NCBI GenBank assembly: GCA_043228905.1
Contig: JBHGNT010001402.1
Coordinates: forward strand, 1 to 8,972
Direction of reading: 5' to 3'
From: Azolla caroliniana
Taxonomy: Eukaryota; Plantae; Polypodiophyta
Length of the DNA: 8,972 nt
The stretch's first letter is position 1. Each line of letters starts with the position of its first letter. The position numbers and the translations under genes are program-made. The notes beneath the pieces are model-generated. The model saw only the letters and a list, made by a program, of their open reading frames with translations, did not search any database and had not been told where the DNA came from. Shown one piece after another: positions 1-7,876 of the stretch.

Positions 1-347
1 AATCGGGTGCTTCAATCCGTTGGGCAATTTGGATTGCCATATGGAATGTTGTCGGTCCCTGATCCATAACATGACGATATAGATCATGTCGTAACCATGG
101 TAGTAGGAAGTACAGCTTCATGGTCTCCTTCATGTTGGGGTCGACTCGAAGTAGTAGTTGTTTTAGCTTGACGGAAGTTGTGCCACCGGCTCGTTGGGTT
201 GTTGCCGGAGACTGTTTATTTGTTGTAGAGCAGATTTTGTCACATCATTGTTAGCGAAATGTTGTATGAGTTGCTCCTACAAATAGTGCCAATCGTTCTT
301 GATTTCTTCCGGTTGTTGTATAAACCACGTGGCGGCTACATGCTCAA
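1..347 (-). pseudogene. gag: Ty3/Gypsy-like LTR retrotransposon gag, 3' part
   Basis: Manual translation: EHVAATWFIQQPEEIKNDWHYL*EQLIQHFANNDVTKSALQQINSLRQQPNEPVAQ, frameshift near 175, then SVKLKQLLLRVDPNMKETMKLYFLLPWLRHDLYRHVMDQGPTTFHMAIQIAQRIE. This is a typical retrotransposon capsid pattern (A..W, W..L...L...F, L.Q...E.V, P.T...AI..A...E). In-frame stop at 277-279. Confidence 0.85.
344..347 (+). repeat. 4-bp target site duplication, left copy (TCAA)
   Basis: Directly abuts the left TIR and is identical to 7358-7361. Confidence 0.93.
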
Positions 348-372
348 GGGTAAAAGCATGCGAGTGGAAACA
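348..372 (+). repeat. Left terminal inverted repeat (25 bp)
   Basis: GGGTAAAAGCATGCGAGTGGAAACA versus the reverse complement of 7333-7357, GGGTGAAAGCATGCGAGTGGAAACA: one mismatch at position 5. Confidence 0.96.
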
Positions 373-702
373 CTATTATAGCTAATTAGCTACTAAAATG
401 GCCATAGCTAATTAGCTATTTGTTTAGCTAGTCTTTCTTGTGGGAAAATCAAATATTTGAAAAACTAATTTATGAAAAAACTCAAATATTTGAACTTCTG
501 TTTCAGACGTAGTGGAACTTGGGGAATATCACCATCATCTAAGGTCGACTTCAATGTCATCAATTTCCTGTTTAGCCTAAGTCTGATTTTGAACGCAGAT
601 GGAGTACTCAGAGCACGAACGCAGACGTAGCTCCCGCAACAGCAAAAAATCGACATTGCAGATTGAGAGCTACAACACAGAACCCGCTCGATCATCGTCC
701 AG

Positions 703-798
703 GTATGTTTCAGTTACAGAAACCCCAAACATTTGTTTTTTCTTTTTGACTACTGTCTGAACTTTGGTGCCGATTCATATTTCCCCAAAATCGAATAG
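703..798 (+). other. Possible 5'-UTR intron of the accessory gene
   Basis: Strong donor CAG|GTATGT at 703, T-rich interior, candidate acceptor AATAG ending at 798, upstream of the ATG at 827. Confidence 0.45.
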
Positions 799-826
799 GG
801 CGAAGTCCTTGGAGTCCCATACAAGG

Positions 827-2752
827 ATGTCTCGCAAATCGGGGAGTAGCAACAGGTGTGTTTATATTACTTTTTTTGTGTTTAATCCTGTCTTTAGTGA
901 TTAGGGTTTGTGATTGAAATTTCTGATTAGGGTTTGTGATTGAAATTTCTGATTAGGGTTTTTGATTATAAATTTCTGATTAGAATTTCTGAATAGGGTT
1001 TCTGGTTACAAATTTTGATTACAAATTAGAATTTCTGAATAGGGTTTTTGTTTATAAATTTCTGCTTAGGATTTCTGATTAGGGTTTGTGATTGAAATTT
1101 TTTATTAGGGTTTCTGATTGAAATTTCTGATTAGGGTTTTTATTATAAATTTCTGATTAGAATTTCTGAATAAGGTTTCTGGTTACAAACTTCTGATTAC
1201 AGATTTTGATTAGGGTTTCTGATTTCAAACTTCTGATTACAGATTTTGATTAGGGTTTCTGATTTCAAATTTCTGAATACAAATTATGATTAGGGTTTCT
1301 GATTTGCTAAGTTAAAGATTTTGCACCATTTTTGTTGTTGTTGATTGGGGTTTTTGATTCTCACATATTCTGATTTTGCACTATTTCTGATTTCTGAAAT
1401 GATATTTCAGATGGCTCGTTCCTCCGTATACGAGAGTGTTAAACTTCGCAAAATTTTGCGAGACAAAGGAGGACTTCCACAACACCTATGGTCTGTCACT
1501 CGAGGGTGTTGACCCTGCTGTCCTAAGTGATAAATTGATCAGTGATATAGACTGGATGACAGTATATACAGTGCCTAGAGTCAAAGGCAAGGTCAAGTTG
1601 AAGCATGTACGAGCCGACTTGTACGATGACTGCATGAGACTGCACCAGAAAGTTCATCAGGAGATCCCAGTCAACAATGAGTTGTCAGTTTCATTTGCTA
1701 GAGCATTTGCATATGAGTACTGCAAAACAGCGAAGGAATCTAGAGACCCTGAAATGTATAGGGTAGCTTGGGCAGTCTATGGTGAGGCATCGGTAAAAAG
1801 ATGCCGAAAGATGGGGACCTTGGCACAAAAAATAGACAGATTTTGGAGCATGGCAGCTGTTGATGCAACTGCCGACTCCCAGCAAGACCGGGGGCATACA
1901 CCACACCGACACCCAAGGAAAGCCAATGTCGATGATACAGGTGAGACATTGGTTAGCTATATGCTAAAAAATGTCCATGAAGCCTGTGAGACATTGGCAT
2001 TTTTTAAGACTAATTTAGAGAAAGCCACAATGGCTTCTGCAATGGAGAGCAAAGTTACTTCTGCTGTTACAACAATTAGAAATAAGATTCAGGTAACTAT
2101 TGTTTTGCTGGTATGTGATTGTGTTATAAATAACGGGTAAAATGTGCTAATCAAGCATTATCTGGAATAGGTTGCGCAACAGGAGCTTGAATTAGAGGGG
2201 CCACTGGATCCCCAGCGTAAAATAGAACTGCAAATAGAGATCCAGGTTCTTTCAATGAACCTGGACCTTCTAGGTGTAAATACTGTTGCAGATTACAATT
2301 TGGATAAGCTTCAAGTAAGTTAACGATTCCTGAGCAAAGTTGGTGTATCTTTCAACAACAAGAATAATTAATCGGTAAATTTCTCTGTTGCGTTGAAGGA
2401 ACAATACATTCATCAAGAACAGGTAGTTAGCTGCCTTAAGAAGAAGCTACATTTTGTGGAGGGAATGGTAAGGACCAGACAGGATTTGGACCTGAACATT
2501 CTTGCTCCCTTACCAAATGAAGTAGAACCAGAAAATGATTTATTGACAGTTCAAGCACGTTGCATCGCTTGCGGGTTAGGTGTGGAGGACAAAACTGCGT
2601 CTTTGTTGGTTCACCTACAACCATGCAACCACACATACCATCTGCTTTGTTTTCAACATGCCTGTCGAATTGCTGCATTCTGTTTGGGAGATTGCAGTAC
2701 AACTCTACCAAATGAGTGGAGAAAACAAACAGGTATACCATACTGTAGCTAA
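827..2752 (+). CDS. Spliced transposon accessory gene, ~402 aa: unassigned N-terminal domain, coiled-coil-like region, C-terminal RING-H2-like zinc finger (putative E3 ligase)
   Basis: Predicted exons 827-855, 1411-2092, 2171-2314, 2399-2752 (1,209 nt, no internal stop). All three introns are GT-AG and frame-compatible (AG|gtgtgt..ttcag|A; CAG|gtaact..aatag|G; CAA|gtaagt..tgaag|G). Protein MSRKSGSSNRWLVPPYTRVLNF...CIAC-x16-CNHTYHLLC-x10-CLGDC...W. The model joins ORFs 1436-2140 and 2393-2752. Confidence 0.8.
899..1305 (+). repeat. Telo-box-containing minisatellite (~26-bp unit GATTAGGGTTTGTGATTGAAATTTCT plus 13/39-40-bp variants) in intron 856-1410
   Basis: About 11 copies of TAGGGTTT (reverse complement of telo-box AAACCCTA), with first units at 899, 925 and 951. 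Confidence 0.9.
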
Positions 2753-3376
2753 TAAGCTTAGTCTTTTCTAATTAGCTATCCTACTAGCTAATTAGCTACT
2801 GGCAGCTAATGAGCTACTAGCTAATTAGCTATCCTAGTAGCTAATTAGCTATGGTACTAGCTAATTAGCTAGTACCATAGTTGTGTAAAAAAGCTAAATA
2901 GCTATCCTACTAGCTAATTAGCCACTGGCAACTAATTAGCTATCCTAGTACCTAATTAGCTACTGCCATAGTTGTGTAAAGTAGCTAATAAGCTATCCTA
3001 GTAGCTAGTTAGCTATGGTACTAGCTAATTAGCTAGTACCATAGTTGTGTAAAAAAGCTAATTAGCTATCCTACTAGCTAATTAGCTACTGGCAACTAAT
3101 TAGCAATCCTACTAGCTAATTAGCTATCCTACTAGCTAATTAGCTATCATAGTAGCTAATTAGCTACTGACATAATTGTGTAAAGTAGCTAATAAGCTAT
3201 CCTAGTAGCTAGTTAGCTATGGTACTAGCTAATTAGCTAGTACCATAGTTGTGTAAAAAAGCTAATTAGCTATCCTACTAGCTAATTAGCTATCCTACTA
3301 GCTAATTAGCTACTGACATAGTTGTGTAAAGTAGCTAATAAGCTATCCTAGTAGCTAATTAGCTACTGGCAGCTAA
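2746..3376. repeat. Palindromic satellite array A (core TAGCTAATTAGCTA, ~20-bp units, higher-order blocks marked by TTGTGTAAA)
   Basis: Directly visible; lies between the two convergent genes and contains three perfect 32-bp palindromes at 2849-2880, 3013-3044 and 3217-3248. Confidence 0.95.
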
Positions 3377-5934
3377 CTTCACAGAGATCAATATTTCACT
3401 ACTCAATTCATTTGGACACCACCTAAATCTAGTAGGGCCACAATCTTGACATAAACCCATGACACATTTATGAATATGGAAGATAGCGTCAGTTTCTCTC
3501 GGACACAATATTGAATCTAATAAATAACTCATGGAAGAGATAACGTGCTCAGATGATTTACACTCCTCTTGCGGGCTTGATCGACAGATTGGGCACCCAC
3601 ATGTGCAAACTGTATTAGTTAGGGATGCGCTATGGTGACGTAGTAGATTAACAGAGTCCTTCAGAAAACCCATCTGTACATGGTAAATGCAACAACATGT
3701 GTATCGATCCTTTAAGCGTCTCACAAAGTGTGGCTTAAGAGACTCGAATGTTCGTAGTTGAACTTTGATAGTTGGATGCATTCGTTTGAACCTAATAAAT
3801 AAATCGACCTGCGTAATAAAGGGGAATTAGTTATTCTCGTAACTAGCTAACTATCCTAGTAGCTAATTAGTTGTCCTAGTAGCTAATTAGCTATCATGGT
3901 AGTTAATTAGCTGTCGTAGTAGCTAATTAGCTATCATGGTAGCTAATTAGCTATTCTAGTAGCTAATTAGCTATCATGGTAGCTAATTAGCTGTCGTAGT
4001 AGCTAATTAGCTATCATGGTAGCTAATTAGCTGTCCTAGTAGCTAATTGGTTGTCCTAGTAGCTAATTAGCTATCATGGTAGCTAATTAGCTGTCATAGT
4101 AGCTAATTAGCTATTCTAGTAGCTAATTGGTTGTCCTAGAAGCTAATTAGCTATCATGGTAGCTAATTAGCTATCGTAGTAGCTAATTAGCTATCATGGT
4201 AGCTAATTAGCTATTCTAGTAGCTAATTAGCTATTCTAGTAGCTAATTAGCTATCATGGTAGCTAATTAGTTGTCGTAGTAGCTAATTAGCTATCATGGT
4301 AGCTAATTAGCTGTCCTAGTAGCTAATTAGTTGTCCTAGTAGCTAATTAGCTATCATGGTAGCTAATTAGCTGCTCTAGTAGCTAATTAGCTATCATGGT
4401 GGCTAATTAGCTATTCTAGTAACTAATTAGCTATCATGGTAGCTAATTAGCTGGTCTAGTAGCTAATTAGCTATCATGGTGGCTAATTAGCTTTCCTAGT
4501 AACTAATTAGCTATCATGGTAGCTAATTAGTTGGTCTAGTAGCTAATTAGCTATCGTGGTAGCTAATTAGCTGGTCTAGTAGCTAATTAGCTATAATGGT
4601 GGCTGATTAGCTTTCCTAGTAACTAATTAGCTATCATGGTAGCTAATTAGCTGGTATAGTAGCTAATTAGCTATCATGGTAGCTAATTAGCTATCACGGT
4701 GGCTAATTAGCTGTCCTAGTAACTAATTAGCTATCATGGTAGCTAATTAGCTGGTCTAGTAGCTAATTAGCTATAATGGTGGCTAATTAGCTATCCTAAC
4801 TAATTAGCTATCATGGTAGTGGCTATTGAGAGTAGCCAGTTACCTATGTAGTAGCTATCATAGTAGCTAATTAGCTATCATGGTAGCTAATTAGCTTTCC
4901 TAGTAGCTAATTAGCTGGTAATAACGAAATAGCTAACTAGCTACCATGATAGCTAACTAGCTAGCAGTACAGCTAATTATCTGGTAGTACCTAAATTAGC
5001 TATTGAGAATAGCTAATTAGCTATCATGGTAGTAACTATTGAGAGTAGCTAGTTACCTATGTAGTAGCGATCCTAGTAGCTAACTGAGGTAAATGTAACT
5101 GATAAGCTAATTAGCTTTTCTGCTAACTGAGCTAATTAACTTTCCGAGTAGAGTCAAAACAAATGTTGAGATAAATGTAAATACCTAAGGTACATCAAGA
5201 AGATGAATGGGATGCTCCTCGTATTGATTTCTTCCAACACGTTTCCTGCATAAATCCTTTTTATTGGGTGAAACCCTACTCTCATTAGTCCAAAACATTG
5301 TGATTACATCCTTGATTTCAAATGTTATGGGTGTCATTGGCTTACATCTTGTAGTTAGCTTTAGTAGACTAGTTCCTTCACCCGAGGAAATTATACGGTT
5401 CATTGTATTGTACACTTTTTTTCTACTAACACCAATTACCTTAGATAGCTCACTGATGTTTATATCGTCAACATCACTATTAAGTAACATCATTAGACTA
5501 GATCTTTTTAAGACAAGATCATCTTCTGACCTACTCATGGATACGAAACTATTACGAAGATTATTTACTAAAATAGATGATATGTTTGCATTAAGACCAT
5601 CACAATCAACTAAGTCCTTTATCGATGGATCATTACATATTCCATAAAGTACTACCTTCTTTTCTTCATTGCTGATGTGCTTGGTTTGAACATTGAAATT
5701 GTCTACAACCTTTCTCTCTATGATGGTAGTCGCATTACTTACATTCTCAGCTAAACTATCCTTACCTTTACTGAGTGTGGCTTTCGTATCCTTCAACAAT
5801 TGACGATGTTTCCTTTTTTTTTCTGCCCAATAGTTTCGTATGGCTTGTTGTGTCCTGATAACATCATCCCTATCCTTATGATCATTGAGGGGTAATTCTA
5901 AACACCATTCTTCCCCTTCCATTTGGCTAGACAT
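3377..5934 (-). pseudogene. Sola-like transposase, N-terminal ~394 codons only; nonsense codon and no catalytic domain
   Basis: Exon 5934-5185 has an HTH-like ISELSKVIGVSRKKVY and FW...SRVSPNKKD...HLL. Donor TAG|GTATTT at 5184; acceptor with CTAAT branch point and TTACGCAG ending at 3809. Exon 3808-3377 reads VDLFIRFKRMHPTIKVQLRTFESLKPHFV...TCCCIYH...CP...C..G.C..CG. This resembles the Sola2-type SR..P.KKD / F...HP......F..L(R/K)P / C.C..H succession. The last codon of exon 1 is TAG (probably ex-CAG). Confidence 0.75.
3843..5138. repeat. Palindromic satellite array B (14-bp palindrome + 6-bp spacer, 20-bp period) filling the transposase intron
   Basis: About 47 units in exact 20-bp register from ~3860 to ~4795, then degenerate to ~5138; lies within predicted intron 3809-5184. 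Confidence 0.95.
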
Positions 5935-6269
5935 GTTAAAACCCTAAATTTCCAGAAAAAAAAACAAGTATTAAAGATGGCTATGGGCAACAACAATACA
6001 CAAAAATATTCCACACAATACACAAGATTAGACACAACAATACACAAGATAATCAATAGACAGAAAAGTTATTGCAATCCAAGACCAAACAGTAGAGGAT
6101 TTCACTCTGTTGGATCCAACAGTTGAGGAGGCGATCCAAGACCGACCAATGGCAACAACTGAGTGTAGAATGTTGCCGTTGGATGAGTGAACTCCGTCAA
6201 ATCGAAATGTGGAAGCAATCCGGGACTGGACAGTAGTGGCAACTGAGTATAGAATGATGGCAATGGAGG

Positions 6270-7004
6270 AGAGAACCCCGTCAGATTGAACAGTTACCGA
6301 TGATGCTTGAAACGCACATAGAAGGCACTTGAGAATAGAGTGGCATAGAGAAGAGAACCCCGTCAGATTGAACAGTTACCAATGATGCTTGAAACGCACA
6401 GTAGCGGCCCCTGAGTGAGAGTGGAAAAGAGAAGAGAACCCCGTCAGATTGAACAGTTACCAATGATGCTTGAAACGCACAGTAGCGGCCCCTGAGTGAG
6501 AGTGGAAAAGAGAAGAGAACCCCGTCAGATTGAATAGCTCTTTGATTATGCTTGGAACGCACAGTAGCAACCCCTGAGTGTAGAGTGGCAAAGAGAAGAG
6601 AACCCCGTCAGATTGAACAGCTCTTTGATGATGCTTGGAACGCACAGCAGCGGCCCCTGAGTGTAGAGTGGCACAGAGAAGAGAACCCCCTCAGATTGAA
6701 CAGCTCTTTGATGATGCTTGGAACGCACAGTAATGGCCCCTGAGTGTAGAGTGGCACAGAGAAGAGAACCCCCTCAGATTGAACAGCTCTTTGATGATGC
6801 TTGGAACGCACAGTAATGGCCCCTGAGTGTAGAGTGGCACAGAGAAGAGAACCCCGTCAGATTGAATAGCTCTTTGATGATGCTTGGAATGCACAGTAGT
6901 GGCCCCTGAGTGTAGAGTGTCACAGAGAAGAGAACCCTGTCAGATTGAGCAGCTCTTTGATGATGCTTGGAACGCACAGTAGCGGCCCCTCAGTGTAGAG
7001 TGGC
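6270..7004. repeat. 81-83-bp tandem repeat, 9 units, upstream of the transposase
   Basis: GAACC anchors at 6273, 6355, 6436, 6517, 6600, 6683, 6766, 6849 and 6932. Unit ~AGAGAAGAGAACCCCGTCAGATTGAACAGCTCTTTGATGATGCTTGGAACGCACAGTAGCGGCCCCTGAGTGTAGAGTGGCAC. Degenerate relics near 6159 and 6243. Confidence 0.96.
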
Positions 7005-7332
7005 GGCAGGTGGACTCGATAGGGTTTAGCAACAGTGGTAGCAACTAACCCACAGTACTCAACTAGAGATGGCCTACGTGATGTGGCAAAGGATCATGCA
7101 TAATGGACCTAGGAATTCGATATATAATTTATGGTACACATTTATGGTGCACACATCAATTTATGTTGCACATTTATGGCACTCATTTACATATGTAATT
7201 AAAACACTCTAGTATTTTCAATGGTAGTTTTTTGCATACTTAATTTATTAATGATGGCTTTTTACTAAAATGACTATTTATCAATGGTAGCTTTTTGCAT
7301 AGCTAATTAGCTATGTCAAGGACATAGCTAAT

Positions 7333-7357
7333 TGTTTCCACTCGCATGCTTTCACCC
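7333..7357 (-). repeat. Right terminal inverted repeat (25 bp)
   Basis: TGTTTCCACTCGCATGCTTTCACCC, 24/25 inverted match to 348-372. Confidence 0.96.
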
Positions 7358-7361
7358 TCAA
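7358..7361 (+). repeat. 4-bp target site duplication, right copy (TCAA)
   Basis: Directly abuts the right TIR; keeping one copy gives minus-strand ACA ATA TTT GAG CAT GTA (TIFEHV) in frame. Confidence 0.93.
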
Positions 7362-7665
7362 ATATTGTTCGCATCTCCAATGCTTTTCTTTCATCATTCC
7401 AATAGTGATAGCTTGCGACGAGGTCAAAATGATCTAGCCAAGCTAGTATATCCTCTGTGGGGAGACCGGAGAATGATCTTGGACGTATTCGGGAATCTTT
7501 TCTTTGATCACTTATTGTTCCTATAGATTGAGATTGAAAGGTGAGCCATGTTATGAGTGCTTGATTCGTGTGATTACTTGAATCATCATCGTAGACATCG
7601 CTTGGAACATTTGCTCTAGCTAATTCGGGTAAAAATGAAGGTTTAAAATTTGTTAATACCGTCAA
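7358..7665 (-). pseudogene. gag: Ty3/Gypsy-like gag, 5' part (same gene as 1-347)
   Basis: ORF 7303-7665 contains PRSFSGLPTEDILAWLDHFDLVASYHYWNDERKALEMRTIF, the P..F.G...ED...W...F......W gag N-terminal pattern. The ORF's last residues (GESMRVET...) are read-through into the TIR. True start codon uncertain. Confidence 0.85.
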
Positions 7666-7876
7666 ATTTTGCTAAGGCCAAAGCAATAGTACATGTATTA
7701 GTAGTTACAAATTACAATTCATAGGCTATAGCATATAGTTTTATTTGAGAAGGGTAAATGTGTAAACATATGTTATGTGATATGATAAAGGAGAAAAAGT
7801 GCCCGAACATATGCATAGTGTGAAAATAAACTTAGGGCTTCTTCTCTTTTCAGCCCATTCCTCTCTTTTGCCTGTT

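What the first reader, a model, noticed from the sequence alone, without database searches (positions are those of the whole stretch)
827..2752. Transposon-borne accessory protein with a RING-H2-like finger, open while the transposase is dead
Seen: four exons splice to an uninterrupted ~402-aa frame ending in C-x2-C-x16-C-x-H-x2-H-x2-C-x10-C-x3-C (last pair spaced x3, not the canonical x2), preceded by a Q/E/L-rich coiled-coil-like segment. Known: RING-H2 fingers are usually E3 ubiquitin ligases, and some plant TEs encode accessory anti-silencing factors (e.g. VANC of VANDAL elements). Inference: a TE-encoded ubiquitin ligase could target host silencing or chromatin proteins, or regulate the transposase.
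Basis: partly seen in the sequence, partly recalled or inferred. Interest (0 to 1): 0.8.

Follow-up and report, generated by a model that had tools for sequence, protein, structure and literature searches.

The report
Sola2 transposon RING–pseudophosphatase accessory gene
This is the front part of a conserved second gene carried by a young, many-copy jumping gene of a seed-free plant (likely a fern); in intact copies it likely continues past a RING zinc finger into a predicted dead phosphatase, and its protein would likely dock on the element's own palindrome arrays and tag host silencing proteins with ubiquitin.

Summary
The four-exon, 402-aa frame and RING-H2-like finger are real (first loop x17, not x16). 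The window is one internally deleted 7.0-kb copy of a young Sola2 DNA transposon (GGG…CCC TIRs, 4-bp TSDs, 553 exact TIR ends in the genome). "Open while the transposase is dead" is misleading. The deletion that removes the catalytic core also removes two downstream + strand ORFs, and 7 of 20 sister copies have both genes open. The gene therefore probably continues into an acidic/NLS-like exon and a NIF/FCP1-like domain lacking the catalytic Asp. Fern gene models show the same N-domain–coil–RING–NIF chain. Two introns plus a 5'UTR intron are spliced in a relative's contig. dN/dS is 0.13–0.32 in exons 2–4 and the NIF domain. The N-domain folds confidently, matches no solved structure, and sits beside distant Sola2 transposases. 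E3 activity and anti-silencing remain inferred. This scan noted the family before on other DNA (e1-10618503); I found no paper describing it.

The parts
344..347 (.). Left 4-bp target-site duplication (TCAA)
   Evidence: same 4 bases at 7358-7361
348..371 (+). Left TIR, 24 bp, begins GGG
   Evidence: 553 exact matches genome-wide, 0 for the reversed control
379..418 (.). Two subterminal copies of the palindrome TAGCTAATTAGCTA
703..798 (+).
   Evidence: skipped in an X1 contig, GT..AG
827..855 (+). Accessory gene, coding exon 1 (ATG)
856..1410 (+). Intron 1 with 13/26-bp TTAGGGTTT-type repeats (898-1318)
1411..2092 (+). Exon 2: ~150-aa globular N-domain of no known family (about 1439-1885) plus start of the coiled coil
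   Evidence: 137 homologues; AF2 pLDDT 93.8; best VIA Z 2.4; dN/dS 0.20
2171..2314 (+). Exon 3: coiled-coil segment
   Evidence: dN/dS 0.13
2399..2732 (+). Exon 4 with the RING-H2-like finger at 2561-2695; ends at a conserved phase-1 donor
   Evidence: dN/dS 0.32
2733..2752 (+).
   Evidence: not conserved in subfamily B, which has CAG|GTAAAA here
2766..3372 (.). Remnant of the intron-4 palindrome array (20/33/53-bp units)
3370..3376 (.). Junction of a ~4-5 kb internal deletion that removes accessory exons 5 and 6 (NIF) and the transposase catalytic core
   Evidence: compared with L014
3373..3808 (-). 5' remnant of transposase exon 2 (CCxYH and Cys-rich region)
3809..5184 (-). Transposase intron holding a 20-bp-period palindrome array (3840-5020)
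   Evidence: splice sites inferred from sequence
5185..5934 (-). Transposase exon 1 (weak HTH match); last codon is TAG in this copy
6255..6996 (.). 81-83-bp tandem repeat upstream of the transposase
7334..7357 (-). Right TIR, ends CCC; one palindrome copy at 7300
7358..7361 (.). Right target-site duplication (TCAA)

Best explanation
This is the 5' part of a conserved accessory gene of a Sola2 DNA transposon of seed-free plants, cut short in this copy by an internal deletion; the full protein (new N-domain, coiled coil, RING finger and, likely by splicing, a predicted dead FCP1-type phosphatase) likely binds the element's own palindrome arrays and would act there as a ubiquitin ligase against host silencing factors. 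Shown: element anatomy, copy number, splicing of the first coding introns in a relative, purifying selection, and conservation of the domain order. Inferred with good support (~0.75): that exon 4 splices onward, giving forms of about 574, 747 or 776 aa instead of 402. Inferred only (~0.35-0.4 together): DNA binding by the N-domain, dimerisation through the coil, E2 recruitment by the RING, and phospho-peptide recognition (for example polymerase CTD-type tails) by the pseudophosphatase.
For: Element: both ends were found in 19 of 21 copies and 18 of them have a perfect 4-bp TSD. Transposase motifs match the Sola2 alignment in PMC3627910 Additional file 10 by eye. The TIR shares its first 11 bases with an active Ceratodon Sola2 (PMC12973397 Table S2 row). 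Selection between subfamily consensuses: exon 2 0.20, exon 3 0.13, exon 4 0.32, NIF 0.25, transposase 0.16. In X1, 14 of the 23 listed exon-2 differences are synonymous (35 in all, 23 shown). Continuation: GT donor in 20 of 20 subfamily-A copies and 7 of 8 B copies shown; both downstream acceptors are in phase. Adiantum gene models join N-domain, RING and NIF in one chain in several divergent subfamilies (P0177, P0236, P0243). An N-domain profile hits 7 of 26 metagenome loci of distant Sola2 transposases, always tail-to-tail on the opposite strand (two were seeds), and L107 also has the same RING variant. Palindrome arrays lie in introns of both genes, as VANC target repeats do in VANDAL21 (PMC5735166 section 9). 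The best PDB sequence matches of exon 4 are RING-H2 E3s (RNF38, DTX2, Pirh2; E 0.02-0.09).
Against: No read or contig spans exon 3-4 or exon 4-5/6. The single X1 contig runs into unrelated sequence after 2214. Two homologues from short contigs end 35-55 aa after the RING (P0221, P0223), so RING-terminal forms may exist. The Adiantum chains are automatic gene models. No NIF hit was found in the 26 metagenome loci, and no RING in L083/L084. The 3' part of exon 5 shows dN/dS 0.66, not significant, with a stop in the B consensus from only 5 copies. The RING is below Pfam cut-offs (12-13 bits against 27-31), and the Pro and linchpin Arg of canonical RING E3s (recalled) are absent. Nothing links the N-domain to DNA: no fold match, and net charge about zero (23 K/R, 22 D/E). 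The palindrome also sits subterminally, where transposases usually bind (recalled).
Confidence: 0.4

Rival explanations
1. The protein is a transposition cofactor like MURB or TNPA: it binds the transposase and/or the terminal motifs, and its RING controls transposase level or assembly, with no role in silencing.
For: The palindrome occurs at both element ends (379, 405, 7300). The gene stays linked to Sola2 transposases at about 40% identity. MURA-MURB binding is shown in PMC12973397 (passages).
Against: Most palindromes (66 of 69 in the window) are in internal intron arrays and not at the ends. The Sola2 elements in PMC3627910 carry other cargo, so this gene is not a universal requirement (passage).
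Confidence: 0.3
2. The finger is a structural zinc or dimerisation module and the protein is a non-catalytic scaffold (DNA- or chromatin-binding adaptor) with no ligase activity.
For: Variant last-pair spacing (x3 here, x4 in homologues), sub-threshold Pfam scores, missing canonical E2-contact residues (recalled). The NIF domain is likewise degenerate (ELDKV; DLNGV in ferns).
Against: All eight ligands and the hydrophobic core are kept from this genome to ferns and to a distant metagenome element. A coiled coil followed by a RING is a common E3 layout (recalled).
Confidence: 0.22
3. A passively captured, decaying host-gene fragment (Pack-type cargo) whose frame is open only because the copy is young.
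For: Copies are 95-100% identical, so an open frame in one copy means little. The NIF part has a host relative of the DLNGVL type (23% identity).
Against: Purifying selection between subfamilies. Fixed layout in both subfamilies. Homologues are high-copy in Adiantum and lie beside distant Sola2 transposases.
Confidence: 0.04

Closest known systems
Sola2 DNA transposons (PMC3627910: passage and Additional file 10 part 1 read; PMC10741241: passage; PMC12973397: passages and four Table S2 rows)
   Same: Short TIRs, 4-bp TSD, DDD transposase motifs; about 11 kb and a GGGTGAAAGCA terminus like the active Ceratodon Sola2 cluster_4006
   Different: Carries a tail-to-tail, intron-containing accessory gene under purifying selection and large palindrome arrays. 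The cargo described for Sola2 in what I read is Fanzor1.
VANDAL/VANC anti-silencing system of Arabidopsis (PMC5735166: abstract and section 9 read)
   Same: TE-encoded second gene; short motif amplified as tandem repeats in introns and variable between copies
   Different: MULE rather than Sola2. No DUF1985/DUF287 match. VANC is not described as having RING or phosphatase domains in what I read. Binding and demethylation are untested here.
RING-H2 E3 ligases (RNF38, DTX2, Pirh2)
   Same: C3H2C3 ligand order; weak sequence matches
   Different: Last ligand pair spaced x3/x4; below Pfam cut-off; activity untested
FCP1/SCP (NIF, PF03031) CTD phosphatases
   Same: Profile match over the curated cut-off in full-length copies (31.3 against 21.8 bits)
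   Different: Motif is ELDKV in place of the DLDET/DLDHT of host genes; absent from the window copy
Sola1-1_Ec32 of Ectocarpus with ParB-methyltransferase accessory gene (PMC12477816, passages read)
   Same: Large Sola element with an opposite-strand accessory gene proposed to act on its own DNA
   Different: Sola1, and a wholly different protein

Membership tests
Sola2 DNA transposon | 4-bp target-site duplication | tested here: met
   18 of 21 copies (19 had both ends in range); feature from PMC3627910 and PMC10741241
Sola2 DNA transposon | Short terminal inverted repeats (G-rich 5' end; GRG rule recalled) | tested here: met
   24-bp TIR GGG..CCC
Sola2 DNA transposon | Sola2-type DDD transposase motifs (CxCxxH, DFAENY, SDG, HGKGxxDG) | tested here: met
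   L014 ORF compared by eye with Additional file 10; no profile score computed; catalytic part deleted in the window copy
RING-H2 E3 ligase | Eight ligands in C3H2C3 order | tested here: met
RING-H2 E3 ligase | Pfam RING profile over curated cut-off | tested here: not met
   zf-RING_2 12 of 27.3 bits; zf-rbx1 13.4 of 31; homologue P0223 20 of 27.3
RING-H2 E3 ligase | Cross-brace zinc binding and E2-dependent ubiquitin transfer | not testable with these tools
   needs biochemistry; exon 4 was not folded on its own
FCP1/SCP phosphatase | NIF domain profile | tested here: met
   (sister copy L014)
FCP1/SCP phosphatase | Catalytic DxDx(T/V) motif (recalled; seen in host genes) | tested here: not met
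   ELDKV in both subfamilies; DLNGV/DLNNV in fern homologues
VANC anti-silencing proteins | DUF1985/DUF287 domains | tested here: not met
   no such Pfam match in the window exons or in 38 and 69 homologues scanned
VANC anti-silencing proteins | Short motif amplified in tandem in the element's introns | tested here: met
   feature from PMC5735166 section 9
VANC anti-silencing proteins | Sequence-specific binding and loss of DNA methylation in trans | not testable with these tools
   needs EMSA/ChIP and methylome

The most novel reading that the evidence does not exclude
Sola2 transposons of seed-free plants encode a self-targeted ubiquitin ligase. A DNA-binding domain of new fold reads palindrome arrays in the element's own introns, a dead CTD phosphatase captures phosphorylated polymerase or silencing factors, and the RING marks them for removal. 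This would be an anti-silencing system evolved independently of VANC, with an enzymatic output, and with alternative last exons switching its targeting module.
Probability: 0.22. Interest if true: 0.85.

Novelty: new variant of a known kind. Interest (0 to 1): 0.58.

Why it matters
Few TE-encoded regulators of host silencing are known, and the mechanism of VANC-type action is still poorly resolved (recalled). This family is young and abundant, has copies with both genes open, and offers a defined candidate motif, a small well-folding domain with no structural match, and two domains with standard assays. That makes 'do plant transposons fight silencing with ubiquitin?' directly testable. It also means many 'hypothetical' RING/NIF genes annotated in fern genomes are probably transposon genes.

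Tried and rejected
Homologue search of exon 2 among longer proteins: 0 hits (the full-library search then found 137). ESM Atlas: no usable hit for exon 2 or P0223. Fold searches of the N-domain: no Foldseek match in PDB or BFVD; VIA wide gave only coiled-coil tails with the long model and best Z 2.4 with the domain alone, which does not prove a new fold. PDB sequence search of the NIF ORF: 0. No RNA holder on record was listed; X1 is treated as spliced only because its contig skips GT..AG introns. Second lay on L029 exons 5-6 and transposase: fragments only, no informative joint. Homodimer prediction of P0223 with zinc: no verdict, score 0.00, alignment not used. A distant N-domain (L083) found nothing in the own genome. 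The N-domain is not related to transposase exon 1. A CACTA reading of 'CACTA' at 371 was rejected: the true end is 348, with a 4-bp TSD. No open frame of 150 aa or more was found across the insertion site in the flanking retroelement-like sequence. Literature searches that found no description of this gene; supplement search of PMC12973397 (NIF 0, PF03031 0, zf-RING only in MULE/CACTA/hAT rows). The two ids I tried for the original Sola and DDE-survey papers were not held, and Repbase entries could not be seen, so an existing annotation there is not excluded.

Full report
1. Observation. The window holds the four exons described: 827-855, 1411-2092, 2171-2314 and 2399-2752, with GT..AG ends and 402 codons plus stop. 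The finger at 2561-2695 reads C-x2-C-x17-C-x-H-x2-H-x2-C-x10-C-x3-C. Pfam sees it only weakly, at 12-13 bits and under the cut-offs. Its best PDB sequence matches are RING-H2 ligases at E 0.02-0.09. One contig of run X1, a relative about 95% identical, skips introns 856-1410 and 2093-2170 and a 5'UTR intron at 703-798. It then runs into unrelated sequence, so the third junction is untested.

2. The element. The gene lies in a 7,010-bp element (348-7357) with 24-bp TIRs (GGG…CCC) and a TCAA duplication. Of 21 copies examined, 19 had both ends in range and 18 a perfect 4-bp TSD; most are 10-14 kb. The TIR has 553 exact matches in the 523-Mb genome and the reversed control has none. Exon 2 and transposase exon 1 each fill the 150-match list at 95-100% identity. 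The transposase of full copies carries the CxCxxH, DFAENY, SDG and HGKGxxDG motifs of the Sola2 alignment in PMC3627910 Additional file 10 (by eye). The 4-bp TSD fits Sola (PMC10741241 passage; PMC3627910 passage). An active 10.9-kb Sola2 in Ceratodon has a TIR starting with the same 11 bases (PMC12973397 Table S2). Named homologues point to a seed-free plant, likely a fern: Adiantum for the accessory protein, and mosses, liverworts, ferns and conifers for the transposase.

3. 'Open while the transposase is dead' does not hold for the family. This copy has a TAG at the end of transposase exon 1, where 17 of 19 sisters have CAG. It also has a deletion at about 3372 of some 4-5 kb. Among 20 sisters, 8 have both transposase exons open, 12 have all five tested accessory segments open, and 7 have both. 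These 20 were chosen from the 150 best exon-2 matches, so the sample is biased to young copies. Of the 72 best transposase exon-2 matches, 58 have no stop. The deleted stretch also holds two + strand ORFs: an acidic segment ending in a basic NLS-like run, and a 379-aa frame with a NIF/FCP1 domain over Pfam's cut-off.

4. The gene probably continues. A second subfamily, about 86% identical, has the same layout (12 of 20 loci fetched; 5 reach the downstream exons). A and B agree up to CAG|GT at window 2732/2733, diverge at once, and agree again from a TAG|AATC acceptor. The donor GT is present in 20 of 20 A copies and 7 of 8 B copies shown. The first acceptor is in 20 of 20 and the NIF-exon acceptor in 18 of 20 A copies. 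Both acceptors are in phase with the donor, which predicts forms of about 574, 747 or 776 aa (corrected by one base). Adiantum gene models put N-domain, coil, RING and NIF in one chain in several divergent subfamilies, and one such family has dozens of loci. Against this: no transcript evidence for the junction, two short-contig homologues end soon after the RING, and the fern models are automatic.

5. Selection and age. Between subfamily consensuses dN/dS is 0.20 (exon 2), 0.13 (exon 3), 0.32 (exon 4), 0.27 (5' of exon 5), 0.66 (rest of exon 5, not significant), 0.46 (exon-6 linker), 0.25 (NIF) and 0.16 (transposase) (the B consensus rests on 4-12 copies). In X1, 14 of the 23 listed differences are synonymous, pN/pS about 0.17 (23 of 35 shown). 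The N-domain has 137 relatives and none of 38 scanned matches a coherent Pfam family. It folds at pLDDT 93.8 with no clear structural match. In 26 partly redundant metagenome loci of distant Sola2 transposases, a profile finds the N-domain in 7, always tail-to-tail; two of these were seeds, and they amount to about four elements. L107 keeps N-domain, coil and the same RING variant. NIF was not found there, so it may be a later addition. Equal contig lengths suggest that fern-like ENA contigs also carry both genes: 9481, 7120 and 10747, and 8136 across. This is an inference only.

6. How it likely works. The palindrome TAGCTAATTAGCTA occurs 69 times in the window with up to one mismatch: 3 near the ends and 66 in two intron arrays, mostly at 20-bp spacing. 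It is also amplified in subfamily B. VANC targets likewise form dynamic tandem repeats in introns of VANDAL21 (PMC5735166). I therefore favour a self-targeted regulator: the N-domain reads the palindrome as a coiled-coil dimer, the RING recruits an E2, and the NIF domain binds phosphorylated tails. Its motif is ELDKV against the DLDET/DLDHT of host genes, so it is probably catalytically dead. Every step of this mechanism is inference, about 0.4 overall. The rivals are a MURB/TNPA-like transposase cofactor (0.3), a non-catalytic scaffold (0.22) and passive cargo (0.04).

7. Known and new. The element is a member of Sola2 by TSD, TIR and motifs. The finger is RING-H2-like but unproven as an E3. 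The C-terminal domain is NIF-fold without the catalytic motif. The protein is not a VANC homologue, though it may work like one. Eight literature searches and the supplement of a 1,007-genome TIR survey showed no description of this accessory gene. The original Sola paper and Repbase could not be seen. Verdict: new variant of a known kind, interest 0.58.

Noticed in passing
window 1-343 and 7362-7671 (minus strand): The element interrupts a gag-like ORF of an LTR retroelement (likeness recalled; no Pfam hit); LTR-like sequence follows towards 8972.
   Followed up: partly
L014 4925 and 5710: The two downstream exons start alike (E-S-x-G-L/F) with the same phase, which suggests duplicated, possibly alternative last exons. 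A strong phase-1 donor (AA|GTAAGA) inside exon 5 is kept in both subfamilies.
   Followed up: partly
window 898-1318: Intron 1 is built of 13/26-bp units containing TTAGGGTTT, resembling the plant telomere/telo-box motif (recalled); its length varies between copies.
   Followed up: no
window 6255-6996: 81-83-bp tandem repeat upstream of the transposase start, a second candidate binding array.
   Followed up: no
L014 5846-5975: A 39-bp coding repeat (13 aa) in the exon-6 linker varies in copy number (ORF 327-405 aa) while keeping frame.
   Followed up: no
L080/L081 (G000:C15:234883 and 261700): Two host NIF genes with a DLNGVL motif are the closest host relatives of the TE domain among 10 host loci tested (23% to this family, 29% to fern P0350); a possible donor lineage.
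   Followed up: partly
L083 3683-5302 and L084 7026-8732 (minus): Distant Sola2 elements encode N-domain, long acidic tract and coiled coil in one 540-570-aa frame, with no RING or NIF found nearby.
   Followed up: partly
L023 12187 and 13280; L026: L023 has two right TIRs about 1.1 kb apart; L026 spans 23 kb because of nested insertions.
   Followed up: no
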